Shown here piece by piece: positions 3,694-37,405 of a DNA stretch of 61,362 bases. The notes beneath the pieces were generated by a model. It saw only the letters and a program-made list of their open reading frames with translations. It had not been told where the DNA came from and did not search any database. Positions within the stretch are counted from its first letter, which is position 1, and each line of letters begins with the position of its first letter. This DNA is from Minisyncoccota bacterium (GTDB lineage Bacteria > Patescibacteriota > Minisyncoccia > Phycocordibacterales > Zambryskibacteraceae), in the NCBI GenBank assembly GCA_020059045.1, contig JAGVCW010000018.1, forward strand, positions 91,320 to 152,681. Direction: 5' to 3'. A program made the translations under genes and the position numbers.

Positions 3694-6600
3694 TTAACCA
3701 AGAACAAAGTTAATAATCCTCTCTTTTACATAGACTGTCTTTATAATGGTCTTGTCCTTAAGCCACTTATCCACTTCCTCCATGGCCTTGGCTCTTTCTA
3801 CTACAACACTCTCTTCTGCCCCCTTTTTAATCACAAGTGTCGCTCTAGTCTTACCATTCACTTGGACAGCAATCGTAGAGGTCTCTTCTAAAATTAGAGT
3901 TTCATCAAACTCTGGCCAACTTTCGGTGTGAATTGAGTTATTGTTTCCTAGGTCATGCCAAATCTCTTCCGTAACAAAGGGAGCAAAGGGTGCAAGAATT
4001 TTTAGAAAAAGTTCCAATTGTTCCTTCGACACAGATTCGCTTTTCTCAAGTTCATTTGCACAAACCATAAGCGAAGAAACTGCTGTGTTAAATCTCATTT
4101 CCTCAACATCTTCGGATACCTTCTTTATAGTTTTATGTATTGTCGAATCAATCTTGTTTGCTTTAGGTTGTTGGCTGTTGGTTACCCTGTCTGCAAGTTT
4201 CCAGATTCTTTCTAAGAATCTTCTTGGGCCAATTATTCCATCGCTTGACCACATTGCCATCTGATCAAAGGGGCCGACAAACATCTCGTACAGTCTCAAA
4301 GTATCTGCACCATATGTTTTGACAATGTCATCAGGGTTAACTACATTTCCTCTCGATTTGCTCATTTTCTCACCACCTTCCGCAAGAACTATCCCGTGAG
4401 AAGTCCTCTTTTTGTACGGTTCAGATGTTGGAACAATCTTTAAATCATACAAAAATTTATACCAGAAACGTGAATAGAGTAGGTGTAAGGTTGTGTGCTC
4501 CATACCTCCGTTGTACCAATCTACGGGTAACCAATGTTTAAACTTGCTTTGTACATCATCACTAAAAATTTCTTTTGAAACGAGCTCTTTTGACTTTAGA
4601 TTGTCCATAATGCAGAAAGCAAGAAAGTACCATGAGGATCCTGCCCAGTTTGGCATTGTGTCTGTCTCACGCGTTGCAGAACCCTTACAAATTGGGCATT
4701 TAACATCCACCCAAGATCGAATATTAGCAAGCGGCGACTCCCCAGTATCAGTTGGTTCGTACTTCTCTACTTTAGGTAGTTTAACTGGCAGGTCCTTTTC
4801 AGATACTGGGACTATTAAATGCTCTTGACCACTAATTAGTACATAATCCTGACCTTCCTTTAGTTCCTTATTATTTATTCCTAGTTCCTCCCAGCAAGTA
4901 CGACAATACATGACTGGTATTGGCTCTCCCCAGTACCTTTGGCGTGAGAATATCCAGTCACGAAGCTTGAATCGAGTTACGCCTTTACCCCCAATAAACT
5001 GAACAATTTCATTTTTTGTTTCTTGAGAGCTTTGACCAGTAAATTTGTCTGAATTAATCATAATGCCCTCACCGGTCCAGAGAGTGCTTGGATTCATTAG
5101 AGTTTCCCAAGAATATCTATGCGAAGCTGGAAGGTGAAACTTCTCCATCTCACTCTTCGTGAGCCAGACAATCTCATGAATATCATTTTCTCCATCTGCT
5201 AAACTTTCTCTTTTGTCATCCTGCAGTTCAAAGTAAAGAACATAAAAATGTGCAAATCTATTTACATCCTTTGGAACATGGAAAAACTTTGCATGAGTTC
5301 GAGGTAAAGCTTTCACAAACTTTAAGTTCTGATATCCTGTCTCTTCTCGAATTTCAGCCAAAGCCGCTTCTTCAGGAGTTTGATTATTTTCTACTCCTCC
5401 AGTTATAAGAGTCTCCCAATTTACTTTTTTCCATTTAAGCCCAATGTACTTGTCATCTCGCCAATGTTTAACTATGGCTGTAATAGCAACTCTCTCTACC
5501 CACTCTTTATCACTTCTCACCTTTCCAGGTTCTGTCTCTTGAATAAATATAGGTTCGATTACTTGTCTAATAGGTAAATTGTGGCTCTTGGCAAAATCAA
5601 AATCTCTCTCATCGTGTGCCGGAACCGCCATGATAGCTCCCGTTCCATAGTGAGGTAAAACGTAATCAGCTACCCAGATAGGAATCTCTTCCGATGTGGC
5701 AGGATTAATCGCGACCACTCCACGAAGCAGAATGCCTGTCTTTTCACCACCTAGGGCTGTTCTATCCATCTCAGAACGCTTCGTTGCAGTCTTTATGTAG
5801 GCTTTAACCTCCTCCTTGTTGTCTAATACATCGTGATCGTTATCAGTTGCAAGTGTTACCCATATGTGTTCGGGAGCAAGCACAACAAATGTGGCACCGT
5901 AAATAGTGTCAGGTCGTGTTGTAAAAACTTTTATAGCCGCTTTCTCACCTTGAGGGCCTCTATTCTCGTTTAACTTTGGTTTACTTTTGAAATCTAAAAG
6001 AAATTCAATTTCAGCACCCTCTGACCGGCCAATCCAATTTTTTTGCTGACTCTTCACTCTGTCTGGATAATCTGCGGTGTCTAAATCCTTATCGAGTCTT
6101 TCTGCATACTTTGTAATAGCAAGCATCCACTGCTCCTTATCTCTTTTTTCAACTGGCGTTCCACAGCGTTCACACTTACCATCAACAACTTCCTCGTTTG
6201 CAAGCCCAATTTTATCTTTCGGACACCAATTAATCGGCATTCGAGCTTTGTAAGCAAGACCATGTTTCAAAAGTTGCAAGAAAATCCATTGCGTCCATTT
6301 ATAATATTTTGGGTCAGATGTACTAACCTCCTTTGACCAATCGAATGAAAGTCCGAGTGAGTTAATTTGCTTTTTGTAGTTTGCAATATTTTTCTTTGTT
6401 GTGATCGAAGGGTGTACTCCAGTTTTAATTGCAAAGCTTTCTGCCGGAAGACCGAAGGCGTCCCAGCCCATTGGGTACATTACGTTATTACCCTCCATCC
6501 TTCTTTTCCGAGATAAAATATCAAACGCCGTGTAGCTCCTCACATGTCCCACGTGCAGACCATCACCAGATGGGTAAGGAAATTCCACAAGTTGATACCA

Positions 6601-9899: not shown

Positions 9900-10913
9900 C
9901 TATATTTTAAATTCAATCACATCCCCATCCTGTACAACATATTCCTTCCCTTCAGTTCTTACCCAACCCCTTTCACGAGCGGCGGCATACGATCCTGCTT
10001 CTAGAAGTTTGTTCCACTCTATAACTTCAGCACGTATAAACTTTTCTCGAAAGTCTGTGTGAATTGCCATACCGGCGACAGGTGCCGTAGAATTTCTAGG
10101 TATTGTCCATCCACGCGTTTCATCCTCACCAGTTGTAAAGTATGTAATGAGATCAAGGGTCTCATAACCTTTTTTTATTAGTTCATCAAGACCAGTACCA
10201 AATACTGAATCTATCTCAAGGTACGGTCCGGGAATTTTAGAATAATCAATATTTACTTTCTCGCTTGCCGCTGAAGAGTTGAGAATATAAAGCACCGGCT
10301 TCATTGTAAGAAGGCTTAGGCCCTTTACCGAGTGAATCTCACTTTGATCAAGAAGAGCACTTCGACACTGCTCAGTGTAAACAAATTTCTCAGCTTCTAG
10401 GGCCGACTTTATTTTTTCAAGTGCAGAGTGTTCCACAACTGCAGCCTTGTCTCCAGTCTTAATGTCGCGAGCAACACTGTCCATTCTTTTATTTACCACT
10501 TGCAGATCTGCAAGAATGAGTTCTAGGTTGATAACCACAATATCTCCCAATGGATCAACTTTGTTATGTACATGAATTATATCTGGGTCCTCAAATACTC
10601 GAACCACTTCTGCTATGGCATCAACTTCGCGAATATTTGTAAGGAATGCATTCCCAAGTCCCTCTCCAGCTGAAGCACCTTTCACAAGCCCAGCAATGTC
10701 TACAAATTCCACAACTGCTGGAAGAGTTTTTGCCGACTTACTGAACTCGGAAAGTCGAGTAAGTCTAGGGTCTGGTACAGGTACAACACCGACTGATGGA
10801 TCAATAGTACAAAAGGGATAATTCTCAGCTGGCACACTCTTCTTTGTAAGCGCGTTAAACAGCGTCGATTTGCCGACATTCGGTAACCCTACGATCCCAA
10901 TTGAGAGTTTCAT
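9900..10913 (-). CDS. ychF: ribosome-binding ATPase YchF
   Basis: MKLSIGIVGLPNVGKSTLFNALT P-loop, with TGS-like and C-terminal YchF blocks. The start was moved to the ATG at 10913 (the track ORF extends upstream). Confidence 0.93.
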   Translation of the reverse strand: MKLSIGIVGLPNVGKSTLFNALTKKSVPAENYPFCTIDPSVGVVPVPDPRLTRLSEFSKSAKTLPAVVEFVDIAGLVKGASAGEGLGNAFLTNIREVDAIAEVVRVFEDPDIIHVHNKVDPLGDIVVINLELILADLQVVNKRMDSVARDIKTGDKAAVVEHSALEKIKSALEAEKFVYTEQCRSALLDQSEIHSVKGLSLLTMKPVLYILNSSAASEKVNIDYSKIPGPYLEIDSVFGTGLDELIKKGYETLDLITYFTTGEDETRGWTIPRNSTAPVAGMAIHTDFREKFIRAEVIEWNKLLEAGSYAAARERGWVRTEGKEYVVQDGDVIEFKI

Positions 10914-10947
10914 AATACTTGCGGTGTGATTGAGCTTAATATTACCA

Positions 10948-11040
10948 CTACTTGCCCCGTTCAAAATCGACCGCTTGTAGGTCGTAATTTTTCTTGGGGC
11001 AGACATTCGGTAACTCCACAATTCCAATGGATAGTTTCAT
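10948..11040 (-). other. diverged duplicate of the ychF 5' end forming a 30-codon upstream ORF
   Basis: MKLSIGIVELPNV... copies MKLSIGIVGLPNV of ychF, including about 9 nt of leader. It then runs out of homology to a TAG at 10948-10950. Confidence 0.6.
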
Positions 11041-11140
11041 AATAACTGCAATATTAGCATGGGTAACCCTATCACCACACGGCCAGTAAAAAAACTTTTT
11101 TCTTTATGTATATGATCTTCTTTTAAGATTCCGTGATCTA

Positions 11141-11196: not shown

Positions 11197-11310
11197 ATGC
11201 GGAAAATGATTAAACTAGTAGGTGCGGCCATTATGGGGGTAGTGTTCCTCATTGGCTGGACCTTACTTTGTACAGGGCAAGCAATTTTTGGGAAACCACA
11301 TCGTACCTGA
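11197..11310 (+). CDS. small membrane peptide (37 aa)
   Basis: CAGGAGAG RBS. The product is MRKMIKLVGAAIMGVVFLIGWTLLCTGQAIFGKPHRT. The terminator overlaps its stop. Confidence 0.45.
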   Translation: MRKMIKLVGAAIMGVVFLIGWTLLCTGQAIFGKPHRT

Positions 11311-11322
11311 TGTGGTTTTTTT
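11294..11322. terminator. bidirectional rho-independent terminator
   Basis: Hairpin AACCACATC / GATGTGGTT with a T-run after it. It sits between the convergent small ORF and the oxidoreductase 3' fragment. Confidence 0.7.
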
Positions 11323-11455
11323 ACTTGCCCTTACCACCAAGCTTATAGACCTTGCATTTAATACGTTCCCTTCTCCACATTCCAAAATGTTTCAAGTATC
11401 CAAATTTGTAAAGTCGAATTGGCGAAAACCCGGCAAACCAGAGTATCCACATCAT
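11321..11455 (-). pseudogene. displaced 3'-end fragment (44 codons) of flavodoxin-like NAD(P)H oxidoreductase gene
   Basis: Translates to MMWILWFAGFSPIRLYKFGYLKHFGMWRRERIKCKVYKLGGKGK*. The intact gene at 17063-17644 ends ...ILWFAGFSPIRLYKFGYLKHFGIWRRERIKKKVFKLGKKAK*. Confidence 0.8.
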
Positions 11456-11480
11456 AAAAAAAGCAGAGACTTATCTCTGC
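11456..11480 (-). terminator. rho-independent terminator of the 447-aa island gene
   Basis: Minus-strand hairpin GCAGAGA-TAAG-TCTCTGC followed by T7. Confidence 0.7.
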
Positions 11481-11501
11481 GTGTTTATTCACTATATTTC
11501 G

Positions 11502-12845
11502 TTAGCCTTTAGGTAGCTGATCAATGTAGATATGTGCCTTATCTCCAAAAACTTCCTTGATTCTGGCGATGAATTTTGGACGGCGTGATCGAGTTGTATG
11601 AGCCAAACTCGATCGTAATGCCCGAGCCAGGTTGGTATCATAATAGCCGAAATCCTCTTTGACTATCTGCTTCCACTCTGCAGGCCATTTACCATTGTTC
11701 TGGCTTTTGCGCCTCAGTATCTTTACAAGCCATTCAACTTGCTCTTCGTCTGAGAAATTCTGCCACTTGCGCCTTGTTGAGCGTGACCCACCATTTGGTA
11801 AGGCCTTATCTGCAAACTGTGGCACAGAAACTTGAGGACTTGCTACTCCTATTGCACGAAAGATATCCTGATACCGACTTTGGATATCAACCAGCGCGTT
11901 GTACTCATTTTCAGCCTCACCACCAACCAGCCGTACAAGAGCTTCGAGCTTGGAGCCTGTCTGTTTTTCATCTTTCATAACTTCTCCTCTAGGTTTGGCG
12001 GCCTTAACCGCGTAAGTGAATTTGGAGGACTTTCTTACTGCAACAAACTTTGTATCCTTATCAAAAAAAAGTGGACTCTCAAGCCAGACTTTCACTAGAG
12101 AGTTGGGCACCTTCTTAGGATGGGGTTCGAAGTGGAAAAAGTATGTTCGCATTCTGACGGGATATCCGGAATATCTACTGACATACACATAACGTTCAAT
12201 GGACGTACACGTCCAATGCTTCCCAATAATTTCTGACATATCAACCAGAACACCAAACTCGCGCTTTGCACCCTTTTCTGGGTCAAAGTTCTTGATACGA
12301 GGTAAGCGCCGCTTTTCTCCCTTAGGAATTCTCTTCTGCCAAGAGACAATATGCTCAAAAACTTTTTGCGAGTGTTTACCAAAAAGTTTTATACCCCGTT
12401 CCACATATTCTGGCCAATTCTCAAGAATTGCATTCCTTCTCGAATCAGAAAGAGTTATAGCAAGTGACCGTCCCTTACTTGCATATACAAGAGGCAGAAC
12501 GGGTGAGAAGTCTTTTATTACTTGGTCAGATAGCGTTCCACATAAATCAAGATGGAAACCATCAATTGCGCCTTGATCACCGTGTCCTTCAAGAATCTTA
12601 TGAAATGTTCCTAAACGGTTATGGCTTCTGTACTTTCCGTTAGAGCCGTTGGAAATAAGTTCTTTACGCCTACTACGGTTAAGCTCAATCTGCCACCCGT
12701 GATTACCGGGAATCCCCACTTCAGCCCATACTCGAGCTTCTATGCCTTGACCTCCAAGAGTTGCAAGTTGTGCTTGGGGTAAAGGAGTGTAGTGTGAGAG
12801 AAACTCGAGAAATCTATGAGCAATTCGCTCTTTCAGAGTTTTCAT
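11502..12845 (-). CDS. island protein A (447 aa), weak Rossmann/methyltransferase-like N-terminal motifs, basic C-terminus
   Basis: CTAAGGAG RBS. The motifs LATLGGQGIE, WQIELN and IDGFHLDLCGT loosely resemble MTase motifs I, II and the D-L-D-x-x-G of Trm1-type enzymes. No confident family assignment. Confidence 0.75.
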   Translation of the reverse strand: MKTLKERIAHRFLEFLSHYTPLPQAQLATLGGQGIEARVWAEVGIPGNHGWQIELNRSRRKELISNGSNGKYRSHNRLGTFHKILEGHGDQGAIDGFHLDLCGTLSDQVIKDFSPVLPLVYASKGRSLAITLSDSRRNAILENWPEYVERGIKLFGKHSQKVFEHIVSWQKRIPKGEKRRLPRIKNFDPEKGAKREFGVLVDMSEIIGKHWTCTSIERYVYVSRYSGYPVRMRTYFFHFEPHPKKVPNSLVKVWLESPLFFDKDTKFVAVRKSSKFTYAVKAAKPRGEVMKDEKQTGSKLEALVRLVGGEAENEYNALVDIQSRYQDIFRAIGVASPQVSVPQFADKALPNGGSRSTRRKWQNFSDEEQVEWLVKILRRKSQNNGKWPAEWKQIVKEDFGYYDTNLARALRSSLAHTTRSRRPKFIARIKEVFGDKAHIYIDQLPKG

Positions 12846-12887
12846 TGCAGCTCCTTAGGAAATTAATTCAAAAAACTATCTTTGCAG

Positions 12888-12944
12888 ATTGTACTATGAA
12901 CTGGCTAGATGTCAACTTGACATTAATATTACCTGTAGTATGCT
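12888..12944. promoter_or_regulatory. back-to-back divergent promoters sharing the palindrome ATGTCAACTTGACAT
   Basis: Minus strand: TTGACA (12910-12915) with a 16-nt spacer to TACAAT (12888-12893). Plus strand: TTGACA (12917-12922) with a 16-nt spacer to TATGCT. The 15-nt palindrome is at 12909-12923. Confidence 0.5.
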
Positions 12945-12985
12945 AAAAAAAGATCAAGCATCATTTCTTTTTTCCTCAATCCTCA

Positions 12986-13624
12986 ATGTCTACTGACTCC
13001 TCGAAACACCAAAGATCGGTGGAGCTTGAACTTCGTAATGGCGAGAAAACCATAAGGGCCGCTAAGTATGCCGAAGAACAACTTATTGATGTCTTGAGTG
13101 ATTCAAGAACTCTCAGCCCAACTGGTATGACAATTGTTCAGCAAATTCTGCACTTAGTCCAAAGTATTGGTTTCGGGCAAGACAACGTCACAGTGTGGGA
13201 AAAGTTTTATGCAGTTATCGAACATGTTACCACTGTCACACCACATGCCAAGCCGAACAAACCAAGCTCTAATGACGAGATCACTCCTATTGAAGTTGAA
13301 ATTGCAAGGCGTGCAAAGATACGCTCCCAAATTGTTTCAATTCAGGAACAACTTGAGAATGAACGTGACCAGAAGCAAAGGGACTTGGAAACTGTTGCAG
13401 AACTTTTGAAACGAGGACTTGATGAGGAAGCTCAAACAAAAAGAAGATCAGTAATTGAAACAGAACTACTGCCTCTGGATGAGACGATTAAGCAAATTAT
13501 CGTAGCCGTGGCAGATAACGATCGTAAAGTTGCAGCTCTCACGGCTTACAGATCAGCAGTTCTACTTGTAAAACATGGGCCACCTGAAGGTGTGATCGGT
13601 GGAGAGTTCAAACTTCCTGTTTGA
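12986..13624 (+). CDS. island protein B (212 aa), predicted coiled-coil
   Basis: The ORF is convergent with the GHKL gene. Its C-terminal half is heptad-rich and charged. No obvious SD, so the start is uncertain. Confidence 0.6.
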   Translation: MSTDSSKHQRSVELELRNGEKTIRAAKYAEEQLIDVLSDSRTLSPTGMTIVQQILHLVQSIGFGQDNVTVWEKFYAVIEHVTTVTPHAKPNKPSSNDEITPIEVEIARRAKIRSQIVSIQEQLENERDQKQRDLETVAELLKRGLDEEAQTKRRSVIETELLPLDETIKQIIVAVADNDRKVAALTAYRSAVLLVKHGPPEGVIGGEFKLPV

Positions 13625-13636
13625 GTGAAGGAATAT

Positions 13637-13669
13637 AAAAACCCAAGCTTCTAGCTTGGGGATTTTTTT
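13637..13669. terminator. bidirectional rho-independent terminator
   Basis: Hairpin CCCAAGCT-TCT-AGCTTGGG flanked by an A-run and a T-run, between convergent genes. Confidence 0.75.
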
Positions 13670-13676
13670 GTTCACT

Positions 13677-15191
13677 TTATTTTTTCATTAGTTCCGCTCG
13701 GACCTCATTTGCAAAAAGCGTGGCTTGGTAGGAATCACCGGGAAACTTTCCCTGGCCAATTGCAAATAGGATCTGTACCAAACAATGCTCGCGCCTAGCT
13801 TCCTTTGTGCTAGGTAAGGCCTTGTATCCTCCGCGAACATTTACAATTACCTGATTTGGGTTGTTTGCTGAAACTTGAGCAAAAACAAATGGGTCAATTG
13901 ACTGCCCCCGATAAAGAACATAAGTCTCATCTCGAACCTTTATCGAGACATAGCGCTGATATGTTGCTGGCTTCCTATGACCTTTTGGATCAGCCTTGGA
14001 GCCTTCTCCTTGCTTTTGTTTTACACCTGGCTTATTGCTATCTGCAAAACCAGGAGCGACAATTTCCTCAGGTTCACCAAAAGTGGTATTCACCATCTCA
14101 ACCACTTCATCAAGAGTAGCTGCAGCATCTCCCGAGATTGCGTCTCGCTCAATTAGCTGTTTTGCTCCTTGAACTACTGACCCGATCAGAAACATCATAA
14201 GCTTGTCCCACTCCCTGTTTCCCTTCTTCATAAAGTCTTTCGCAAGGGTGTTGCGCGCAGTGTTCTGATGTCGCAAAAGTCCTGGAGCAAAGATATCGCC
14301 CTTGAGATCTGGGAACCACAGAGGATCGGGAAGCAGGCGTCCAAGCACTCTGCAGCTTGCGACACGCAGTCCAGTCCCTTCATCGCAGAGCCAAACTCCT
14401 CCACTATCTGCATCCCCTACTCCGAGTCTTGCTCTGTATAAGCCGTTCTCAGATGTCACATTCACCGCACTTTCAAGCGGCGGCGGCTCAAGCGTCTTAC
14501 TTCCAACAGTAAGTGGAAACATTTTATCTCGTTCACGCGGAAGCAGCCACTTAATTGCCTCACAAATATCATCGCAGGATGAGAAAACTGGTGTTGGAAT
14601 AACAATAGCGGTAAATGGGCCCTTAATTTTTTTCAGGTGCCCCATCTCCGTTGAATCAGATGGAATGAACCTGTCTGTTCTAAAGCCACCTTCAAGCTCA
14701 TATTTCTCAGGGATCATTGAGACAAATCGGGCGTCACCTGTAACAGAAGTTCTCGAAAGCAGGTAATAGCCGTGCTTGATTCTTTTAGTTGCAGGATTTT
14801 TGTCACTTACACAATTGGAATTAAGAGCAAGAGCCGCAAGTCTCCCTATACCCTTTTGGGATGCCCCATTAGATTGCATCTTTGTCTGCTGATTCAAATC
14901 ATGTATCGAAGTACCCAGTCGTTTAAAATAACGATCAAGCATCGGATCTGTTAGCCCACAACCGTGATCAAGTACCACAAGGGTTGGAGCTTTCCCCCCA
15001 AGAGGATGATTCGGAACTAACGAAATCTCAATATTGGCAAGCTGCGGTTCCCATCTATTCTTTGCATCGGGCATACTTGCGACAAGACCGTTTCTAACTA
15101 GTTCCATTACACATTGACCAGGACTATCATACAGACCACTTCCCAGGTTTTCGATCATCATATAGGCAGTAACATCCATGCGCGTGTTCAT
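13677..15191 (-). CDS. GHKL-superfamily (MORC/HATPase_c_3-like) ATPase, 504 aa
   Basis: The Bergerat motifs appear in order: MELVRNGLVAS (N box), VLDHGCGL (G1) and GASQKGIGRLAALAL (G2). About 350 aa at the C-terminus are unassigned. Confidence 0.8.
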   Translation of the reverse strand: MNTRMDVTAYMMIENLGSGLYDSPGQCVMELVRNGLVASMPDAKNRWEPQLANIEISLVPNHPLGGKAPTLVVLDHGCGLTDPMLDRYFKRLGTSIHDLNQQTKMQSNGASQKGIGRLAALALNSNCVSDKNPATKRIKHGYYLLSRTSVTGDARFVSMIPEKYELEGGFRTDRFIPSDSTEMGHLKKIKGPFTAIVIPTPVFSSCDDICEAIKWLLPRERDKMFPLTVGSKTLEPPPLESAVNVTSENGLYRARLGVGDADSGGVWLCDEGTGLRVASCRVLGRLLPDPLWFPDLKGDIFAPGLLRHQNTARNTLAKDFMKKGNREWDKLMMFLIGSVVQGAKQLIERDAISGDAAATLDEVVEMVNTTFGEPEEIVAPGFADSNKPGVKQKQGEGSKADPKGHRKPATYQRYVSIKVRDETYVLYRGQSIDPFVFAQVSANNPNQVIVNVRGGYKALPSTKEARREHCLVQILFAIGQGKFPGDSYQATLFANEVRAELMKK

Positions 15192-15790
15192 ACAGACCTC
15201 GGGGAGGGAGTGTTGAGTGACGACATGTCCTTACTGGTCGCCGGCCGATTGATTGAATCACTTTTGTCCGAGAATCGAGCGTTGATTCCCATTCGCTTGC
15301 TAATACGACTCATGGCCGCACGCATCTGAATTCGATCACCATCTGTGGCATCCTTTTTCTCGATAGAGGCCACGTCAATAATCACGTATAGCGAGTTAAG
15401 CAATGTGATAACGTGACCAACCATCTTGCGATTGATCTCTGAGCTGTGAACATCACTGATCGGGAGTTTCTTGATTTTCACCGTAGGTGTTACAGATCTT
15501 TCTTCATCGGTGGAGTACACCGGTGTAGAAGGATCCTTTCTGAACGCCGCCATAGACTTTATGGCTTTCCTCACCTCATCTGCAGTCATTTTGGATGGAT
15601 TTACTAGCCATCTTAGAAGCTGCTGATAGTTTTTTTCTATCGGATCCCCCATATACCGTTTGGTATAAAGGAGTGGCCGGTTCTTACCAGATAAGGTTGA
15701 GACCATTTTTCTAAGTTCTTCTACAACCTGCGTGCGATCCCGTTTGTTTCGTAGTTCAGGAGTTCCACTCCTTAACGACTTTTTGGGCAT
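15188..15790 (-). CDS. island protein D (200 aa), helical/basic, unknown function
   Basis: GAGGAG RBS. The stop overlaps the GHKL start (ATGA at 15188-15191). Confidence 0.7.
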   Translation of the reverse strand: MPKKSLRSGTPELRNKRDRTQVVEELRKMVSTLSGKNRPLLYTKRYMGDPIEKNYQQLLRWLVNPSKMTADEVRKAIKSMAAFRKDPSTPVYSTDEERSVTPTVKIKKLPISDVHSSEINRKMVGHVITLLNSLYVIIDVASIEKKDATDGDRIQMRAAMSRISKRMGINARFSDKSDSINRPATSKDMSSLNTPSPRSV

Positions 15791-15907
15791 TTTGACTCCT
15801 CAATGATTAAACTTTGAAAGACCTAACTCTTTTTACATTAAATACTGTTGTATTAAATTTGTCAAGATACAAAAAACTACGCATCTAATAAATGCGTAGC
15901 CATTAAT

Positions 15908-16855
15908 CTAGCCCAATATTTTACTTAGCGCTTCAACAGTTGCTCTTGTTTCTGCCATTGAAGCAAGGATCTCAGTCCTCTCACCTTCCAGGGAGCTAAT
16001 ACTTGTCTCCTCTGACTGAATCCTGCTTCTTGCTTCTCCGATAGCATTATCGATTACTACAAGGCGAGCCTTACTGCGATCAGAAGCCTCCAGTTTATCC
16101 GTTAGCTCCTTCAGCCTTGTTACCACTTCACTTGTGCTAATAGTATTTTTGTGCACTTGACCATTAGAAGCAGGCGAAACAGGGCTCACCGCACCTACCA
16201 AACCCGATTTACTCCTAACAAGTTGTGCCCCTTGTGTTATCCATTGAGGGGACAAGCGAAACATTTCTTGACTGCCTGATAGAGGTATGAGTCTCTTGCC
16301 ATCGGCAATAGAGCTAAAGAAGTCCTCTGGGTCGTCCGTACCTAGTTCCCTCAATACTCGGAGACAATCAGCTCTAGAGACAATATTTGTTTCTGGTGAA
16401 AGATTCCATATCTCTTGCATGATCTGAGGCCACAGTGCCGGGGTCTTGGCCGACTTACTTGTCCCATTTCCACTGTGTGCATCCTCGGATCTAGCTGACT
16501 CAGTCTGAAGTTTGGCTTTCTCAAGCCTACTATGAAAATCAACCGTATCCATACCATGAGGGACACTCATAAGTAAAATATACCTCTCAGAGTTATCACC
16601 GAAATGAGCGCTAACCTCAATCATTCTTCGACTAAGAACCGGCTTGAACCTCAGGCCCTTGGTGTGAGTAGTTCCTTTTGCAGTATCGCTTAGTTTCAAC
16701 AGCACCGGACTTGCTACCTGCCCAGCATTAGCAAGAATTTGTCCCAACTCCTTTCTCAATTCAGTTGCGGAACCAATTCTTCTCTCAAGTTCAGGCGATC
16801 CATTAATTATGAACTTCAGTGCCGGGCCATTCGCGAGCTTCCGTGTGGCGCTCAT
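15908..16855 (-). CDS. island protein E (315 aa), unknown N-domain, possible wHTH, C-terminal coiled coil
   Basis: AAAAGGAG RBS. It is the first gene of the operon. The C-terminal 80 aa are heptad-like (LKELTDKLEASDRSKARLVVIDNAIGEARSRIQ...). Confidence 0.7.
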   Translation of the reverse strand: MSATRKLANGPALKFIINGSPELERRIGSATELRKELGQILANAGQVASPVLLKLSDTAKGTTHTKGLRFKPVLSRRMIEVSAHFGDNSERYILLMSVPHGMDTVDFHSRLEKAKLQTESARSEDAHSGNGTSKSAKTPALWPQIMQEIWNLSPETNIVSRADCLRVLRELGTDDPEDFFSSIADGKRLIPLSGSQEMFRLSPQWITQGAQLVRSKSGLVGAVSPVSPASNGQVHKNTISTSEVVTRLKELTDKLEASDRSKARLVVIDNAIGEARSRIQSEETSISSLEGERTEILASMAETRATVEALSKILG

Positions 16856-16899
16856 GTTTCTCCTTTTTTGAACAAAGTGGTGAAGATCTATCTAATTAC

Positions 16900-16927
16900 A
16901 CTATACTATATAAAAATAATTTGTCCA
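16900..16927 (-). promoter_or_regulatory. promoter of island operon (TGGACA-16-TATAGT)
   Basis: Hexamers on the minus strand at 16922-16927 and 16900-16905, about 45 nt upstream of the ATG at 16855. Confidence 0.5.
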
Positions 16928-17062
16928 GCGTCTTGCACATAAAAAATTTTGGGCATGGAGTTACTAAGAATTTGGTAGCATAAATATTACATGGACTAGT
17001 TCGTGCGAACTAGCCTATAGAACAGAATACTATTATATACATTAGAAAACAACTCTAAATTT

Positions 17063-17644
17063 CTACTTTGCTTTTTTTCCTAATTTGAAAACTTTTTTCT
17101 TTATTCTTTCACGTCGCCATATTCCAAAATGTTTCAGATACCCAAACTTGTATAAGCGGATTGGTGAAAATCCTGCAAACCAGAGTATCCCCCTACGCAT
17201 TTCGTTTGTTGTGTCGCCAAACACTAGGTGCAAAATAATTGGCATGGTGTCCGATGTGACAAACATCACTGCAGAGCGACCCTTGAGTAACCTCTGCCAA
17301 CTGTATCCTCCTTCCGGAAAGTGATAAGCAAATCCTGGCAGCCAAGCTCGGTCAAATATTCCTTTGAGCTTTGCCGGCATTGTAGAAAACCATGTTGGAT
17401 AAAAAACCACGAAGTGATCGCACCATTTCACATTTTCCTGAAATGCCACTAGGTCAGGTTCAAGATCTTGCTTAACCTTGTATCCCTTGTGCAATACTGG
17501 ATCAAAGTTCATTTCCTCTAGATTCATCCGTCTTACCTCATGACCATTCTCTGTTGCACCTTTTTCGTATTCACCCGCCAAAGTACCGTTAAAAGTATCT
17601 GTGTCTGGGTGCCCAAGTAATATAAAAATCTTCTTTTTTTGCAT
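17063..17644 (-). CDS. flavodoxin-like fold NAD(P)H-dependent oxidoreductase (Flavodoxin_2 / quinone reductase-type)
   Basis: KIFILLGHPDTDTFNG...WCDHFVVFYPTWFSTMPAKLKGIFDRAW is typical of this family. About 125 nt at its 3' end are duplicated at 11321-11455. Confidence 0.8.
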   Translation of the reverse strand: MQKKKIFILLGHPDTDTFNGTLAGEYEKGATENGHEVRRMNLEEMNFDPVLHKGYKVKQDLEPDLVAFQENVKWCDHFVVFYPTWFSTMPAKLKGIFDRAWLPGFAYHFPEGGYSWQRLLKGRSAVMFVTSDTMPIILHLVFGDTTNEMRRGILWFAGFSPIRLYKFGYLKHFGIWRRERIKKKVFKLGKKAK

Positions 17645-23057: not shown

Positions 23058-23330
23058 GACTCCCCCTTGTAGTAGTTGTGATTGCGCCTGTTCCTAGGAT
23101 TTTCTATCAGAAATCTGTAACTTTGTCAAGCTTGTGGCTAAAAAAATTCATGTGATGCCGTTGTGGTCAGGAGTAACTTTTTACCTATGTGTCTTTTGTG
23201 GTCACGAATATTTTGTTCGTCGCCACAAACAAAATTTCTCGACCCTGGCTCAGTATCGCTCGTACTCTTGCGATATACTTCCGCCTTCCACAAAAGCACA
23301 AAACCCCTATCGGGGTTCTTGTGTCTTTTG

Positions 23331-23403
23331 TGGACCCTACCGGATTCGAACCGGTGACCTCCTCATTGCAAATGAGGCGCTCTACCAACTAAGCTAAGGG
23401 CCC
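23331..23403 (-). tRNA. tRNA-Ala (anticodon TGC)
   Basis: Cloverleaf read by hand: acceptor GGGCCCT with G3:U70, anticodon arm CCTCA-TTTGCAA-TGAGG, T-loop GGTTCGAATCC. CCA is not encoded. A terminator AACCCC-GATA-GGGGTT follows. Confidence 0.93.
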
Positions 23404-25472: not shown

Positions 25473-26468
25473 CTACTTCGCCCAGTGTGACTCAATATAA
25501 GAGTTCACTTCACTCACCTTAAGCGGCGACGTAGTATTACCAGTACGAATAAAGAACTCCTCATCTCCATTCTGACGTAGATACACCGGCTTCGGACTTG
25601 GTGAGACGTAAATCAAGCATATTTGCCGCCCTTCGATCTGCTCAAACGTAAGATCCACATACTGTCTGAATTCTGCACCTATCATTTGCTTAAGCATTTG
25701 GTTGAAATGATTTTCAAAACCATCTCTATCTTTTCTCACAAGCGAGTTTATATCCTCATCGAGACCATAGATTTTTCCATTATCAGTTACACCTATTATG
25801 AGATGCCCGCCATCTCCATTTAGAAAAGCAGTTACGGTTTTAAGTACAGCTTTCTCTAGGTCCTTGCTTGTAATCTTCTTTTTTGTATCCCATCGAAAGG
25901 TTTGTTTAAATTCAAGTTTCTTCCCTTCTCCTTCCAAAATGAGTTCAACCGCAGTTACCACTCTTCGATTGCGGACACTTGCCTGCCGATCATCATTCTC
26001 TATAGTAGTTTTGATAACATTTCTATAAACCTCTGCGTTCTCAATACTTTTTATTTTAAAAGGTTTCTCTCTGTCCTTTATTGTTAGAACTATAGTTCCA
26101 TAATTGAACATGAACTCAAAACCGCTTCGCTTGTACTCCACCTTCTCCACATCTCTTAGAAAAAAAGAGTTTTCTCTGTTAAAGAAGAAGCCCTTACGAT
26201 GCACAATTTCACTCTCTCTGACTCGAAACTCTTCATTATGCCAACTTACAAAGATTAGAAATGTAATAAGAAGCTGTATAAGTGAAGCGGCAAGAGCAAG
26301 AAATATGTCATATCTTATAATACCCGCCACAGCGCTCCCTCTATAAAATTCTTCGTAATTAGTGAAAAATGAAACAGAAACAAGGAAAATAACTAAAATA
26401 AGCTCCATTCGTGCAATCCTGCTAATAAGCACGAATGGGCTCTGTCTTATCACAACCGGGTACTTCAT
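25473..26468 (-). CDS. membrane bPH (YdbT/DUF304-like) domain fused to AlbA_2 (Schlafen-type) domain
   Basis: Two TM helices plus a bPH-like segment. The C-terminus has EGEGKKLEFKQTF...KAVLKTVTAFLNGDGGHLIIGVTDNGKIYGL, typical of AlbA_2. Confidence 0.65.
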   Translation of the reverse strand: MKYPVVIRQSPFVLISRIARMELILVIFLVSVSFFTNYEEFYRGSAVAGIIRYDIFLALAASLIQLLITFLIFVSWHNEEFRVRESEIVHRKGFFFNRENSFFLRDVEKVEYKRSGFEFMFNYGTIVLTIKDREKPFKIKSIENAEVYRNVIKTTIENDDRQASVRNRRVVTAVELILEGEGKKLEFKQTFRWDTKKKITSKDLEKAVLKTVTAFLNGDGGHLIIGVTDNGKIYGLDEDINSLVRKDRDGFENHFNQMLKQMIGAEFRQYVDLTFEQIEGRQICLIYVSPSPKPVYLRQNGDEEFFIRTGNTTSPLKVSEVNSYIESHWAK

Positions 26469-29859: not shown

Positions 29860-32535
29860 TCAATGAGAGTTTTTGAGAGCCTTTTTCAAATATTTTGCTG
29901 TGTACGAACTACTTATACCCGCAAGATACTCCGGGTTTCCCGCCGCAATAAGCTTGCCACCACCACTTCCACCTTCTGGCCCAAAGTCGATCACGTAATC
30001 AGAGGATTTTATTAGATCCATATTGTGTTCAATCACAAGCACTGTGTTGCCATGATCTACTAACTTTTGCAGTATCTCAATAAGTTTCTTTACATCATCA
30101 TAATGTAGACCAATGGTAGGCTCATCAAGCAGGTATATCGTCTTTTGCATGTGCGGCCGATAGAGCTCTGATGATATCTTTACTCTTTGTGCTTCACCGC
30201 CAGATAGAGTTGTGGCTGATTGCCCGAGTTCAAGATACCCAAGCCCCACATCATCCATCGTCTTCAATCTGTCATAAATTGCAGGAATATCTTCAAAAAA
30301 CTTAAGTGCCTCCTCCACAGTCATCTTTAGTATTTGAGAAATGTTTTTCTTTTTGTATTCAACTTCGAGTGTCTCTTTCATAAAACGCTTTCCTCGACAA
30401 ACATCACAAGGCACATAAACAGTTGGAAGAAAATGCATTTCCACCGCTATCTCTCCGTTACCTTGACATGTCTCGCATCTACCACCTTGCACATTGAATG
30501 AGAAGCGGTTTGCCTTCCATCCACGAGCTCGTGCTTCCGACGTTTCCGCAAAGAGCTCCCTTATGAAAGTCCATGACCCTGTATAAGTTGCAGGATTAGA
30601 GCGGGGTGTACGTCCAATCGGTGATTGATCAATAAGTATCGATCGCCCCAAGTATTCAGTACCTTTAAACTCCTTACAATTGTAAACATCTGCTGAGCGG
30701 TACCGTCTATCGAATCTTGCTTGAAGATTTTTGTGCAAGATTTCATACATAAATGACGACTTTCCGGACCCAGATACTCCAGTTACAACTATAAAGCGTC
30801 CAAGTGGTACATCAACATTTAAATTTTGTATATTAAAAATATTTCCTCCTCGTACCTGCAGTGCCCCACGATTCTCAGTACGTCTTTCAGAAGGTAACTC
30901 AATTTTGAGTTCGCCTCGAAGATAGGCAAGCGTTCTTGAGTGGCCATCAATTCTTTTGGCAACTAACAAATCTTCAAGCCACCCCGAGGTTACGATTTCA
31001 CCTCCATGTACGCCGGCCCCGGGGCCAATGTCCACAATATAGTCAGACGAAAATATTGTGTCTTCGTCATGCTCCACAACGATTATTGTGTTACCAAGAT
31101 CACGCAGATTTAAAAGAGTTTTTATGAGCCTATCATTGTCACGTGAATGTAAGCCAATTGTCGGTTCATCAAGCACATAGAGTGCCCCCACAAGCCCACT
31201 GCCGAGCTGGGATGCCAGTCTAATTCGCTGTGCTTCACCACCAGACAGAGTATGAGCTCGCCTATCAAGTGAGAGGTATTCGATCCCCACATTTATCATA
31301 AATTGAAGTCTAGATTCAATTTCTTTCAACACTACTTTTGCAATTTCTTTTTCTACTTTTGTTAAGTTGAGATTGTTAAAAAAGTCAAAAGCGTCAGAAA
31401 TTGACATTCTAGTAACTTGCACAATGTTTTTTGCCCCGTGCGAAGTAGCCCCTCCTTGGGATGGGGCGTAAGTTCGCTTGGGGTTCCCACCGATTAAAAC
31501 ATTTAGGGCTTCTGGTCGAAGTCTCGCGCCCGCACACACTGGGCACACTTCATCACCAAAAAAGTGCTTTGTTCCCAACCCATTACATTCCGGGCATGCA
31601 CCATATGGAGAGTTGAAAGAGAAGAGTCTTGGCTCAATTTCTGGAAATGAAAATCCGTCATTCGGACAGGCAAATTTGGATGACATAAGATAGTCATCTT
31701 CTAGAGATCGCATGTCGTGAAGTGTTTTTGAATCAGTAAACAGAAAACGTACGAGCCCATCGCTTTCTGAAATTGCTTTTTCAAGAGATTCGAAAAGTCT
31801 TTCATTCGCACTCTTCGGATCTTCTGTAAAATCTGATATCTCTATTTGATCGACAAGTACGTCTATATCATGCCTTTTTGTTTTCGAAAGAATTATTTGA
31901 TCACGAAGTTTCTTACGCACTCCATCTACTACTACATCACTGTATCCCTTGCCTAAAAGGTCATAAAGAAGCTGGTAATACTCTCCTTTTCGGCCTCTTA
32001 CCATGGGCGCAAATATCTCTACATAGTATGGAAACGTGATTCGATTAGTTCCCTTGGATAAGACCTTTCTCTTCTCAGAGATTTTTTGAAGCACAATATT
32101 TTTTATCTCCTCTATTGAAAGACGCTTGATCTCTTGCCCACATAGAAGACAGTGTGGGTGCCCAATGCGTGCGAAAAGTACTCGAAGATAGTCATAAATC
32201 TCGGTGATAGTAGCAACGGTTGAGCGCGGATTATTGGACCGTGACTTTTGATCAATAGATATAGCGGGAGATAACCCTACAATCTCGTCTACATCAGGTT
32301 TTTGCATCTGCCTTAGAAACTGCCTTGCATATGATGATAATGACTCCACATACCTGCGCTGGCCTTCCGCGAAAATTGTGTCAAAGGCAAGTGAAGACTT
32401 ACCGGATCCAGATAATCCAGTAAATACCACCATCTTATTGCGAGGCATCTCGACAGTCACATCCTTAAGATTGTGTGTACGTGCTCCTCTTACTATAAGC
32501 AAGTCACTAGATGTTTTTTTAGTATCTTTCTTCAT
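29860..32535 (-). CDS. uvrA: excinuclease ABC subunit A
   Basis: Two ABC modules ([24 protein letters not shown]), LSGGEAQR signatures twice, and zinc modules. The start is set at MKKDTKK (ATG at 32535). Confidence 0.97.
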
Positions 32536-36753: not shown

Positions 36754-36922
36754 ATAATTGACGGACATCATACAGTAACCACGAACAAAAGCAAGGAAAA
36801 CCAATGAGGCATTGCTTTTTGGAGGTGTAAAAGTGTGATTATCAACAATAATTAGAAATACCTTTGTTTTTGGCCATTATTTGTATCTTTTTTGTTTTAA
36901 ATTTTTTGTATAATTATTTTCC

Positions 36923-36950
36923 TTGACAATAATTATGGATATGATATAAT
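36923..36950 (+). promoter_or_regulatory. sigma-70-type promoter (TTGACA-16-TGATATAAT)
   Basis: Hexamers at 36923-36928 and 36945-36950. The leader to the csp ATG is about 100 nt. Confidence 0.6.
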
Positions 36951-37396: not shown

Positions 37397-37405
37397 ATCT
37401 AAATT

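What the first reader, a model, noticed from the sequence alone, without database searches (positions are those of the whole stretch)
11321..17190. Integrated ~5.7 kb G+C-rich island bounded by a duplicated gene 3' end and a 16-mer core, with no recognisable integrase
Minus-strand nt 11321-11455 translate to MMWILWFAGFSPIRLYKFGYLKHFGMWRRERIKCKVYKLGGKGK*. This is a near copy of the C-terminus of the intact flavodoxin-like oxidoreductase gene 5.7 kb away (17063-17644, ...ILWFAGFSPIRLYKFGYLKHFGIWRRERIKKKVFKLGKKAK*). The copies are direct repeats that differ at many positions. Homology stops abruptly just past an identical 16-mer, GCAAACCAGAGTATCC (11433-11448 and 17175-17190). This is the classic footprint of site-specific integration into a gene's 3' end by an element that supplies its own replacement 3' end. 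The displaced host fragment still abuts the host bidirectional terminator at 11294-11322. The enclosed DNA is G+C-richer: my hand counts of single 60-nt samples gave 34/60 at 14281-14340 and 24/60 in leuS at 4021-4080. It has its own promoters, strong SD sites and terminators, and encodes five proteins. I cannot assign any of them to tyrosine, serine or DDE recombinases. Either integration is ancient and the integrase was lost, the element is mobilised in trans, or one ORF is a novel recombinase.
Basis: partly seen in the sequence, partly recalled or inferred. Interest (0 to 1): 0.85.

Follow-up and report, generated by a model that had tools for sequence, protein, structure and literature searches.

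The report
Integrase-less five-gene island in flavodoxin-like gene
A 5.7 kb block of foreign DNA was inserted into the end of a flavodoxin-like gene of an uncultured ultra-small (CPR/Patescibacteria) bacterium, bringing a replacement gene end but no integrase; its cargo is an uncharacterised five-gene cassette built around a methyltransferase-like protein and an Hsp90/MORC-like ATPase.

Summary
The core observation holds. Window 11318-11448 and 17060-17190 are 131-nt direct repeats, 72% identical. They start at an identical 16-mer and end 3 nt past the stop codon. Of 27 differing codons, 22 are synonymous. Most of the 29 related Patescibacteria genomes have fld directly followed by ychF, which is the empty site, so the 5,742 bp between the repeats is an insertion.

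The G+C claim is weak: 0.437 against 0.415, and 11% of equal-sized windows match or exceed it.

None of the five ORFs looks like a recombinase. o447 has a SAM-methyltransferase fold. o504 is an Hsp90/MORC-like GHKL ATPase. o315, o200 and o212 are poorly conserved, and o315 and o212 give only coiled-coil-type matches.

The island is exactly one copy of a five-gene cassette. That cassette recurs in 20 or more CPR loci, in different housekeeping contexts. The annotated neighbourhoods hold no adjacent integrase, and the ten tested loci have no flanking repeats.

Best reading (about 0.55): a circular DNA carrying the cassette plus an attP-like fld 3' end integrated by a single crossover (Campbell-type), using a recombinase acting in trans or since lost. 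This resembles e14/icd integration and an integrase-less cis-mobilizable element (CIME). Homeologous or illegitimate recombination remains possible. A cassette-encoded novel recombinase is unlikely.

The parts
17063..17644 (-). Intact flavodoxin-like NAD(P)H oxidoreductase gene (fld, 193 aa). This is the target gene. Its last 42 codons (17063-17190) belong to repeat copy 2.
   Evidence: Pfam Flavodoxin_2 E 3.5e-28 and FMN_red E 4.8e-14. Orthologues of 49-86% identity in 29 Patescibacteria genomes.
17060..17190 (-). Direct repeat copy 2 (attL-like). It is the functional 3' end of fld and is inferred to have been supplied by the incoming DNA. The 16-mer core lies at 17175-17190.
   Evidence: Its last 58 nt are closest to the fld end of L007 (0.76), unlike copy 1.
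16856..17062 (-). Non-coding right end of the island. It holds a hairpin just after the fld stop (about 16985-17020) and promoter-like sites for o315 (16927-16900; 17059-17032).
   Evidence: promoter scan. (fold -20.5 kcal/mol, z -2.6). No homology to the host flank: 11/40 identities.
15908..16855 (-). o315, the first cassette gene. It has a conserved ~120-aa N-terminal domain, a middle domain and a C-terminal coiled coil. Function unknown.
   Evidence: No Pfam, NCBIfam or PDB hit. 41 remote homologues besides the query in an exhaustive phmmer search. 28% identical (E 5e-34) to the first gene of the L060 cassette. Only 4 invariant columns, none a Ser or Tyr.
15188..15790 (-). o200, the second cassette gene. 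Its stop overlaps the o504 start by 4 nt, so the two probably form an operon. Function unknown.
   Evidence: Homologues at the same position in L030, L032, L060, L062, L065 and L066. Only a sub-threshold DUF5343 hit. No PDB profile hit.
13677..15191 (-). o504, a GHKL ATPase of the Hsp90/MORC/SMCHD1 type (ATPase domain plus transducer-like middle domain).
   Evidence: Pfam HATPase_c_3 E 7e-6, above the gathering score. Conserved E30, N34, D75, G77 and G79. AF2 model pLDDT 86, pTM 0.81. Foldseek top hits are HtpG, GRP94, TRAP1, SMCHD1 and MORC2, E 1e-13 to 1e-10.
12986..13624 (+). o212, the opposite-strand cassette gene. It is poorly conserved. In more distant cassettes a longer (366-585 aa) protein takes its place.
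   Evidence: 3 invariant columns; only coiled-coil noise against PDB.
11502..12845 (-). o447, the last cassette gene. It has a class I Rossmann-fold SAM-methyltransferase-like N-terminal domain (residues about 1-270) and a helical C-terminal domain.
   Evidence: 70 homologues; every one that carries a source name is from CPR/Patescibacteria, and none has a Pfam domain. Invariant GGxGxE, E54 and D95-x2-H98-x-D100-x2-G103. AF2 pLDDT 86. All 50 listed Foldseek PDB hits are methyltransferases or methyltransferase-fold proteins, E 1e-5 to 8e-4.
11449..11501 (-). Non-coding left end of the island. The o447 terminator hairpin (11463-11480) and its U-run lead directly into the core.
11318..11448 (-). 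Direct repeat copy 1 (attR-like). It is the displaced 3' end of fld (42 codons plus stop, no disabling mutation). The 16-mer core lies at 11433-11448.
   Evidence: Its last 58 nt are closest to the fld end of L004 (0.76).
11290..11322 (.). Host hairpin terminator immediately after the displaced fragment's stop codon. It is shared with the convergent 38-aa ORF at 11197-11313 (+).
   Evidence: -15.6 and -16.3 kcal/mol on the two strands, z about -4.3.
9900..10916 (-). ychF (ribosome-binding ATPase/GTPase), the gene that follows fld directly in the empty sites of relatives.
   Evidence: Pfam YchF-GTPase_C and MMR_HSR1. Synteny in L001-L029.

Best explanation
The 5,742 bp between the two repeat copies (11449-17190, or equivalently 11433-17174) is horizontally acquired DNA. 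It entered the 3' end of the host flavodoxin-like gene by a single reciprocal crossover (Campbell-type) between the chromosome and a circular molecule. That circle consisted of one five-gene cassette plus an attP-like copy of the last ~128 nt of a related bacterium's fld gene. The crossover lay at or near the 16-nt identity at the 5' edge of the homology. The host gene therefore now ends in the incoming 3' end and stays intact. The original 3' end sits as a silent fragment next to the old terminator. No gene in the island encodes a recombinase, so the reaction was most likely catalysed by a site-specific recombinase acting in trans, from a helper element or encoded elsewhere in the genome, or by one since lost. 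The island is thus an integrase-less element bounded by att-like sites, comparable to a cis-mobilizable element (CIME) or a satellite. The cargo is a CPR-restricted module: variable first gene, o200, Hsp90/MORC-like GHKL ATPase, opposite-strand gene, and a SAM-methyltransferase-like protein. By analogy with GHKL/paraMORC restriction-modification-like systems it is most plausibly a DNA-modification or defence (conflict) system. Shown: the repeat, the insertion, the empty sites, the cassette's recurrence, the two folds, and the absence of recognisable recombinases. Inferred: the circular intermediate, the crossover position, the trans-acting recombinase and the cassette's function.
For: The repeat has sharp edges at the 16-mer and at the stop codon plus 3 nt. 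The 16-mer is exact in both copies. The 13 orthologues compared differ from it by 2-7 nt, and 0 of 78 orthologue pairs share an identical 16-mer there. The first 70 nt of the repeat are 84% identical and the last 58 nt only 55%. Orthologue pairs that are equally diverged in the last 58 nt average 70% in the first 70 nt. This fits a recombination zone at the 5' edge. Differences are 22 synonymous against 5 non-synonymous codons, and 25 of 37 changes fall at third positions, so both copies evolved as working gene ends in different lineages. Most relatives show empty sites, with fld and ychF 25-430 nt apart. The island holds only the cassette, with 53 and 207 nt of non-coding DNA at its ends. All five genes have counterparts in the same order in L060. 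The cassette recurs in 20 or more CPR loci at unrelated positions, so it is accessory and horizontally transferred. Precedents are e14 in icd, with a 163-bp pseudo-icd' duplicate (PMC6379469), and CIMEs, which keep attL/attR but have lost their integration genes (PMC5704250).
Against: No integrase was found in the island. None was found among ten unassigned ORFs elsewhere in the window. The genes called next to the cassette in the six annotated neighbourhoods carry no integrase family; the nearest is a serine recombinase about 6.7 kb away in L060, beyond a housekeeping gene. In ten other loci the cassette has no flanking direct repeat detectable by blastn or tblastx, while the same test recovers the window's repeat. 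There is therefore no evidence that cassette plus att forms a recurrent mobile unit. No cassette relative and no fld fragment was found on IMG/VR viral contigs. The closest cassette is only 49% identical in o447, so recent mobility is undocumented. Composition is barely atypical. A second identical 16-mer inside the repeat weakens the argument that the boundary 16-mer is a special 'core'. Which copy is host-derived rests on weak similarity signals.
Confidence: 0.55

Rival explanations
1. No site-specific recombinase was involved. DNA from a related Patescibacterium, in which the cassette lay just downstream of fld, was taken up, for example by natural transformation. It circularised and integrated through host recombination across the homeologous 131-nt fld segment, or through homology-facilitated illegitimate recombination. 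The 3' edge of the repeat at the stop codon then only marks where conserved coding sequence ends, and the 5' edge marks the end of the donor fragment.
For: There is no integrase in the island, the window sample or the annotated cassette neighbourhoods. Elsewhere the cassette sits between housekeeping genes without repeats, which suggests it usually moves by means that are not site-specific. The fld-ychF junction is variable in relatives, with unrelated and partly GC-richer inserts in L005, L007 and L010 that also lack integrases. Both copies look like ordinary orthologous fld ends.
Against: The longest perfect identity is 16 nt within 72% overall identity. From established knowledge of RecA, which needs roughly 25-30 nt of identity for efficient exchange, that makes a poor substrate. 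The homology edge coincides with a 16-nt exact match that none of the 13 compared orthologues shares, as expected for a crossover core but only a coincidence under this model. None of about 40 cassette-bearing loci has fld next to the cassette, so the postulated donor arrangement has not been seen.
Confidence: 0.22
2. The cassette moves itself. One of its five proteins, or a complex of them, is a recombinase of a new type that integrates the element into gene ends.
For: All five proteins lack any functional annotation beyond the two folds. o315, o200 and o212 have no recognised fold. The island has no other candidate enzyme. o315 and o447 flank the two att-like sites.
Against: o447 and o504 model with high confidence as a methyltransferase fold and an Hsp90/MORC-like ATPase. 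The o315, o200 and o212 families are weakly conserved: 4, 14 and 3 invariant columns, with no invariant Ser or Tyr in o315 or o212. Their profile searches against PDB find nothing significant, and those for o315 and o212 return only coiled-coil matches. Ten other cassette copies have no terminal direct repeats and share no target gene.
Confidence: 0.06
3. An integrase-bearing element (ICE, IME or prophage) integrated here, and everything except the cassette was later deleted. This would be a classic CIME formed by decay in situ.
For: Both att-like repeats are retained. The CIME precedent exists (PMC5704250). From general knowledge, CPR genomes are strongly streamlined, so deletion bias is plausible.
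Against: No pseudogene or remnant is present. Non-coding DNA at the island ends is 53 and 207 nt. The remaining content equals exactly the five-gene unit seen elsewhere, which would require a remarkably precise deletion.
Confidence: 0.12
4. The structure is an artefact or a purely local event: a metagenome assembly chimera, or a local duplication followed by paralogue decay.
For: The sequence comes from a metagenome-type contig seen only once.
Against: Host synteny (pgi-rok-fld ... ychF) continues on both sides exactly as in 29 relatives. The only shared sequence is 16 nt, too short to cause a mis-join. The DNA between the repeats is a foreign cassette known from other genomes, not duplicated host DNA.
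Confidence: 0.03

Closest known systems
e14 and phage 21 integration into the E. coli icd gene (an element supplies a replacement 3' end and leaves a pseudo-icd' fragment)
   Same: Integration inside the 3' part of a protein-coding gene. The duplicate 3' end is of similar size (163 bp for e14, 131 nt here). The copies differ mainly by conservative or synonymous changes. The target gene stays functional (PMC6379469).
   Different: From established knowledge, e14 and phage 21 encode their own tyrosine integrase next to att. This island has none. The host is a CPR bacterium, and the cargo is a five-gene cassette rather than a prophage.
CIMEs (cis-mobilizable elements): islands that keep attL/attR but have lost their integration and transfer genes
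   Same: [quoted passage not shown] No integrase and no transfer genes (PMC5704250).
   Different: CIMEs are defined as decay products of ICEs or IMEs and usually carry remnants or sit in tandem with a functional element. Here there is no remnant and no neighbouring element within the window. Mobilisation by a helper is untested.
Prokaryotic MORC/paraMORC GHKL ATPases in restriction-modification-like systems (Iyer, Abhiman and Aravind 2008)
   Same: A GHKL ATPase with a transducer-like middle domain sits in a compact, patchily distributed operon together with a methyltransferase-fold protein (PMC2292703).
   Different: No superfamily II helicase or recognisable endonuclease partner. The methyltransferase-like protein lacks the (D/N/S)PP(Y/F) motif of DNA amino-methyltransferases and has HLDLCGT instead. 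There are no PADLOC hits. The three further genes have no known counterpart.
Genomic islands integrated in protein-coding gene ends by dedicated integrase families (for example the dusA-specific integrases)
   Same: A protein-coding gene serves as the attachment site and its coding sequence is restored (abstract of PMC4482086, seen).
   Different: Those islands are defined by a conserved integrase adjacent to the att site and by recurrent use of the same target. Here there is no integrase, and fld is the target in only this one genome among 29 relatives and about 40 cassette loci.

Membership tests
Site-specifically integrated element restoring the 3' end of a protein-coding target gene (e14/icd type) | Direct repeats (attL/attR) formed by a duplicated 3' segment of the target gene, with a sharp homology edge | tested here: met
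   131-nt repeat with edges at the 16-mer and at the stop codon plus 3 nt.
Site-specifically integrated element restoring the 3' end of a protein-coding target gene (e14/icd type) | Uninterrupted (empty) site in related genomes | tested here: met
   fld is directly followed by ychF in L001-L004, L006, L009, L013 and others. No island ORF occurs in any of the 29 loci.
Site-specifically integrated element restoring the 3' end of a protein-coding target gene (e14/icd type) | Element-encoded tyrosine or serine integrase next to an att site | tested here: not met
   No hit in Pfam, NCBIfam, PHROGs, PADLOC or PDB. AF2 plus Foldseek give a methyltransferase fold for o447 and a GHKL ATPase for o504.
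Site-specifically integrated element restoring the 3' end of a protein-coding target gene (e14/icd type) | Excision to a circular form, regenerating attB and attP | not testable with these tools
   No reads are available. Proteins P0001 (o447) and P0072 (o315) are each recorded on a single contig.
CIME (cis-mobilizable element) | Retains attL and attR but lacks integration and transfer genes | tested here: met
   Repeats are present. No recombinase, relaxase or transfer family was found in the five ORFs.
CIME (cis-mobilizable element) | Derived by decay of an ICE or IME (remnants, or tandem accretion with a related element) | tested here: not met
   No remnant ORFs. Only 53 and 207 nt of non-coding ends. 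No neighbouring element or integrase among the tested window ORFs.
CIME (cis-mobilizable element) | Mobilised by the integrase of a related element | not testable with these tools
   This needs the full genome, the co-resident elements and an experiment.
Tyrosine, serine or DDE recombinases (any of the five island proteins) | Catalytic domain recognisable by profile or fold, with conserved nucleophile and active-site residues | tested here: not met
   Invariant residues in the o315, o212 and o200 families do not form a recombinase-like set. The three small proteins were not structure-modelled.
paraMORC/GHKL restriction-modification-like systems | GHKL ATPase with Bergerat-fold motifs and a transducer/S5-like domain | tested here: met
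   HATPase_c_3 above the gathering score. Motif residues E30, N34, D75, G77 and G79 conserved. Foldseek hits to Hsp90, SMCHD1 and MORC2 over about 430 columns.
paraMORC/GHKL restriction-modification-like systems | Linked DNA methyltransferase | tested here: inconclusive
   o447 has a SAM-methyltransferase fold with a GGxGxE loop and an acidic residue after strand 2. It lacks the DPPY-type motif, and its nearest structures are small-molecule, sugar and rRNA methyltransferases, so the substrate is unknown.
paraMORC/GHKL restriction-modification-like systems | Linked superfamily II helicase and/or endonuclease | tested here: not met
   No such domain was found in any cassette protein.
Catalogued anti-phage defence systems (PADLOC-DB v2) | Any component matching a system model | tested here: not met
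   0 hits for all five proteins at E up to 0.1.

The most novel reading that the evidence does not exclude
The five-gene cassette (o315-like, o200-like, Hsp90/MORC-like GHKL ATPase, opposite-strand partner, SAM-methyltransferase-like protein) is a previously undescribed defence or epigenetic conflict system; every homologue that carries a source name comes from CPR bacteria. It travels as a minimal integrase-less unit, and this window has caught it with its attachment sites still in place. The stronger and much less likely version is that the cassette itself encodes a new kind of integration machinery.
Probability: 0.35. Interest if true: 0.65.

Novelty: new member of a known kind. Interest (0 to 1): 0.45.

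Why it matters
Very little is documented about how CPR/Patescibacteria, with their tiny genomes, acquire accessory genes. This locus is a clean, base-resolved example of an insertion into the end of a protein-coding gene that keeps the gene intact, with empty sites in relatives and yet no integrase. It gives explicit predicted attB and attP junctions that can be searched for in reads. It also defines a compact, conserved cassette of five genes (four in more distant versions) that is found so far only in CPR-annotated or unnamed metagenomic sequences and is absent from the Pfam, PADLOC and PHROGs annotations. The cassette pairs a methyltransferase fold with an Hsp90/MORC-like ATPase and is a reasonable candidate for a new defence or DNA-modification system. 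If a helper integrase is found, the island would be one of the few described trans-mobilised elements in this radiation.

Tried and rejected
- **Recombinase searches.** Pfam, NCBIfam, PHROGs, PADLOC and PDB sequence and profile searches of all five ORFs found none.
- **Structure tests of the two largest ORFs.** o447 has a methyltransferase fold and o504 is a GHKL ATPase, so neither is a novel integrase.
- **o315 as an ORFan.** The word-indexed search found only the query itself. The exhaustive search and tblastn found a family and a cassette counterpart. o315 is not related to the c4 first-gene family by hhalign.
- **att-like repeats around ten other cassette copies.** blastn with word size 7 and tblastx found none, while the window served as a positive control.
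- **Terminal inverted repeats in the island.** Nothing convincing.
- **Viral contigs (IMG/VR).** No match for the cassette or for fld fragments.
- **Integrases elsewhere.** None among ten unassigned window ORFs. None in the unrelated inserts at the same junction in L005, L007 and L010.
- **Deciding which repeat copy is host-derived.** Identity to 13 orthologues gives only a weak signal.
- **The small 38-aa ORF as part of a conserved empty-site architecture.** It is not conserved in relatives.
- **Composition as evidence of foreignness.** Weak for both GC and tetranucleotides.
- **Literature.** Searches for CPR integrative elements or a matching GHKL-methyltransferase system found nothing specific.

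Full report
**1. The observation**

The minus-strand ORF at 11321-11455 encodes MMWILWFAGFSPIRLYKFGYLKHFGMWRRERIKCKVYKLGGKGK*. This copies the C-terminus of the 193-aa protein at 17063-17644. That protein is a Flavodoxin_2/FMN_red NAD(P)H oxidoreductase, here called fld (Pfam E 3.5e-28).

At the DNA level the two copies are ungapped direct repeats of 131 nt: 11318-11448 and 17060-17190, spaced 5,742 nt apart.
- They are 94/131 (71.8%) identical.
- 22 codons differ synonymously and 5 non-synonymously. 25 of the 37 substitutions fall at third codon positions.
Upstream of it only 7 of 40 nt match.
- Homology ends 3 nt beyond the stop codon. Downstream only 11 of 40 nt match.
- The 16-mer occurs exactly twice in the window even with 2 mismatches allowed, against 0.05 expected.
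- One correction: a second identical 16-mer (TGAAACATTTTGGAAT) lies inside the repeat.

The displaced fragment is followed at once by a strong hairpin with a U-run (-15.6 kcal/mol, z -4.3).

The compositional claim is weak. Island GC is 0.437 against 0.415 for the rest of the window. 11% of equal-length windows are at least as GC-rich, and 11% are at least as deviant in tetranucleotide use. The 52-54 kb region is much more deviant.

**2. It is an insertion**

A scan of one genome per species found 29 loci with fld orthologues (49-86% identical). All are Patescibacteria (Paceibacteria, Zambryskibacteria and similar labels). Where the locus reaches far enough, the order is pgi-rok-fld-ychF, as in the window. 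In most loci fld is followed by ychF after only 25-430 nt (L001-L004, L006, L009, L013 and others). No locus contains a homologue of any island ORF or a second fld 3' fragment.

The fld-ychF junction varies in some relatives. Unrelated inserts occur in L005 (4.4 kb, GC 0.45 against 0.36 in the flanks), L007 (1.2 kb, GC 0.52 against 0.40), L010, L012 and L015. None carries an integrase or a duplicated fld end.

**3. What the island contains**

There are five ORFs in three or four transcription units, with promoter-like and terminator-like sites.
- **o447 (11502-12845, minus strand).** It has 70 homologues. Every one that carries a source name is from CPR bacteria, and none has a Pfam domain. 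Invariant motifs are GGxGxE, E54, DGFHLDLCGT, AITVxDxRRN and RMRTY. The AlphaFold2 model (pLDDT 86) has a Rossmann alpha/beta N-terminal domain. All 50 listed Foldseek PDB neighbours are methyltransferases or methyltransferase-fold proteins.
- **o504 (13677-15191, minus strand).** It matches HATPase_c_3 above the gathering score. The Bergerat-fold residues are conserved. The model has pLDDT 86 and pTM 0.81. It resembles HtpG, GRP94, TRAP1, SMCHD1 and MORC2 over about 430 columns, E down to 1e-13.
- **o315.** It looked like an ORFan in the word-indexed search. An exhaustive phmmer search found 41 remote relatives. It is 28% identical (E 5e-34) to the first gene of the closest cassette. Its family has a conserved ~120-aa N-terminal domain and a C-terminal coiled coil, with only four invariant columns.
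- **o200 and o212.** Both are likewise poorly conserved.
- No profile of the three small families finds anything significant in PDB or Pfam. For o315 and o212 the only matches are coiled-coil noise.

Nothing matches PADLOC or any informative PHROG. The statement 'no recognisable integrase' is therefore confirmed as far as these tools reach. The 'novel recombinase' option is unlikely.

**4. The island equals one copy of a recurrent cassette**

Searching metagenome contigs with the o447 alignment, plus exact look-ups of homologues, gave about 40 loci. In the closer ones the order is the same as in the window: [265-340-aa first gene] [o200-like] [o504-like] [o212-like, opposite strand] [o447-like], spanning 5.0-5.8 kb. 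In more distant ones the first and the opposite-strand genes are replaced by other families, while o504 and o447 stay linked.

The cassettes sit at unrelated positions between housekeeping genes:
- PPDK in L060.
- Peptidase_M48 and DnaB in L062.
- Peptidase_M13 and an alanyl-tRNA-synthetase-like gene in L065.
- Rce1-like and an ABC transporter in L066.
- A tRNA-synt_1b gene in L067.
- Pth and Mfd in L068.

None of these annotated neighbourhoods has an adjacent integrase. The nearest is a large serine recombinase about 6.7 kb away in L060, beyond PPDK. In ten tested loci there is no flanking direct repeat, although the same test recovers the window's repeat. The cassette is absent from IMG/VR viral contigs. 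It is therefore an accessory, horizontally moving unit. This window is the only place where it is seen with att-like ends.

**5. Mechanism**

The geometry is host 5' part, core, new 3' end, cassette, core, old 3' end, old terminator. That is what a single crossover between the chromosome and a circle carrying cassette plus fld 3' end produces.

Three observations favour a site-specific event at the 5' edge:
- The homology edge coincides with a 16-nt exact identity. None of the 13 compared orthologues shares it (2-7 mismatches each), and 0 of 78 orthologue pairs are identical there.
- The first 70 nt of the repeat are 84% identical and the last 58 nt only 55%. Orthologue pairs equally diverged in the last 58 nt average 70% in the first 70 nt.
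- A 16-nt maximum identity in a 72% background is a poor substrate for RecA-type recombination. This point rests on established knowledge and was not tested here.

In the last 58 nt the fragment is closest to L004 (0.76) and the intact end is closest to L007 (0.76). The two ends therefore come from different lineages, which fits an imported replacement end. Which copy is native remains only weakly indicated.

No enzyme is identified. The island's non-coding ends are only 53 and 207 nt, so in-situ loss of an integrase would have needed a very clean deletion.

My confidences are:
- Recombinase acting in trans or since lost, a CIME/satellite-like island: about 0.55.
- Homeologous or illegitimate recombination of donor DNA: about 0.22.
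- Specifically in-situ decay of a larger element: about 0.12.
- Cassette-encoded novel recombinase: about 0.06.
- Artefact or local duplication: about 0.03.

**6. Function of the cargo (inference)**

A methyltransferase-fold protein is linked to an Hsp90/MORC-like GHKL ATPase in a patchily distributed, mobile operon. This recalls the GHKL/paraMORC restriction-modification-like systems of Iyer et al. 2008 (PMC2292703). Some neighbours also point to defence-rich surroundings: ParB_N-N6_N4_Mtase in L062, and Mrr_cat, PDDEXK_1 and UDG in L065.

However, no helicase or nuclease partner is recognisable. The methyltransferase lacks a DPPY-type motif, and there is no PADLOC hit. Membership in any known system is therefore not established. 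'Defence or DNA-modification system' is a hypothesis.

**7. Comparison with known systems and novelty**

The integration footprint works like e14 or phage 21 in icd (PMC6379469). The integrase-less, att-bounded state resembles a CIME (PMC5704250). The defining integrase and the ICE/IME remnants of those families were tested and not found.

I file the locus as a new member of a known kind: a genomic island inserted in a gene's 3' end with restoration of the gene. It is notable for its host clade, its minimal size, the lack of any recombinase and an uncharacterised cargo cassette.

**8. Limits**

- Only 61 kb of the genome was available.
- No reads were available.
- The three small proteins were not structure-modelled.
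- The nearest relatives are only about 75-85% identical in protein, so neither the exact pre-insertion allele nor the age of the event can be determined.

Noticed in passing
window 10999-11093 (minus strand) vs 10872-10966; L001 10609-10661 vs 10734-10790; L013 10787-10842 vs 10888-10946: A truncated copy of the ychF 5' end lies about 125 nt upstream of the real ychF start. It runs from about 30 nt upstream of the ATG to codon 14 (MKLSIGIVELPNV, then diverging as CPKKN...). The same pseudo-5' end, with the same breakpoint (GGC|CCCAA), is present in L001, and L013 gives a double hit. It is therefore old: possibly a conserved upstream ORF or leader, or an ancient attachment-site footprint at the other edge of the same variable junction.
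   Followed up: partly
window 32473-32564 and 32595-32686: A perfect 92-nt direct repeat separated by 30 nt. It duplicates the 5' end of the 903-aa gene at 29860-32571 (minus strand), which reads like uvrA from its N-terminal sequence (not tested with any profile search), including its start region ([21 protein letters not shown]). This is a second gene-start duplication in the window. It could be a recent event or an assembly artefact.
   Followed up: partly
L005 6461-10830; L007 1943-3183; L010 10579-13878 (between fld and ychF): The fld-ychF junction holds unrelated inserts in other Patescibacteria, some clearly GC-richer than their flanks (0.45 vs 0.36; 0.52 vs 0.40). Most of their ORFs have no Pfam match. 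None has an integrase or a duplicated fld end. The junction looks like a hot spot for accessory DNA.
   Followed up: partly
window about 52000-54000 (ORF 52343-53443, +): This is the most compositionally deviant segment of the window (GC up to 0.52, largest tetranucleotide distance). It contains a 366-aa ORF with only a sub-threshold DUF3043 hit. It is a better candidate for 'foreign by composition' than the island under study.
   Followed up: no
window 36500-38000 and 57000-58500: Further GC peaks (0.495 and 0.50). The stretch 36805-37405 has no ORF of 100 aa or more and no Rfam hit. ORFs 57014-57610 and 57639-58193 have no Pfam family.
   Followed up: no
window 25473-26468 (minus strand): A 331-aa protein combines a bacterial PH domain (bPH_2) with a Schlafen AlbA_2 domain. 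This domain is often seen in conflict or defence contexts.
   Followed up: no
window 40413-41235 vs 48299-49118: Two diverged paralogous genes (56% nt identity over about 820 nt), at 40220-41284 and 48127-49140, both on the minus strand. Their N-terminal sequences look MreB/actin-like; this was not tested.
   Followed up: no
window 23289-23389 vs 61263-61362: The tRNA-Ala(TGC) gene at 23330-23403 and its flank are 67% similar to the region of a second, cut-off tRNA at the window end (61304-61362).
   Followed up: no
L060 18072-20018 (minus strand): In the genome with the closest cassette, a 648-aa large serine recombinase (Resolvase, Recombinase, Zn_ribbon_recom, plus a Replic_Relax hit) lies about 6.7 kb from the cassette. 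A housekeeping PPDK gene and several small ORFs separate them, so it probably belongs to a separate element.
   Followed up: no
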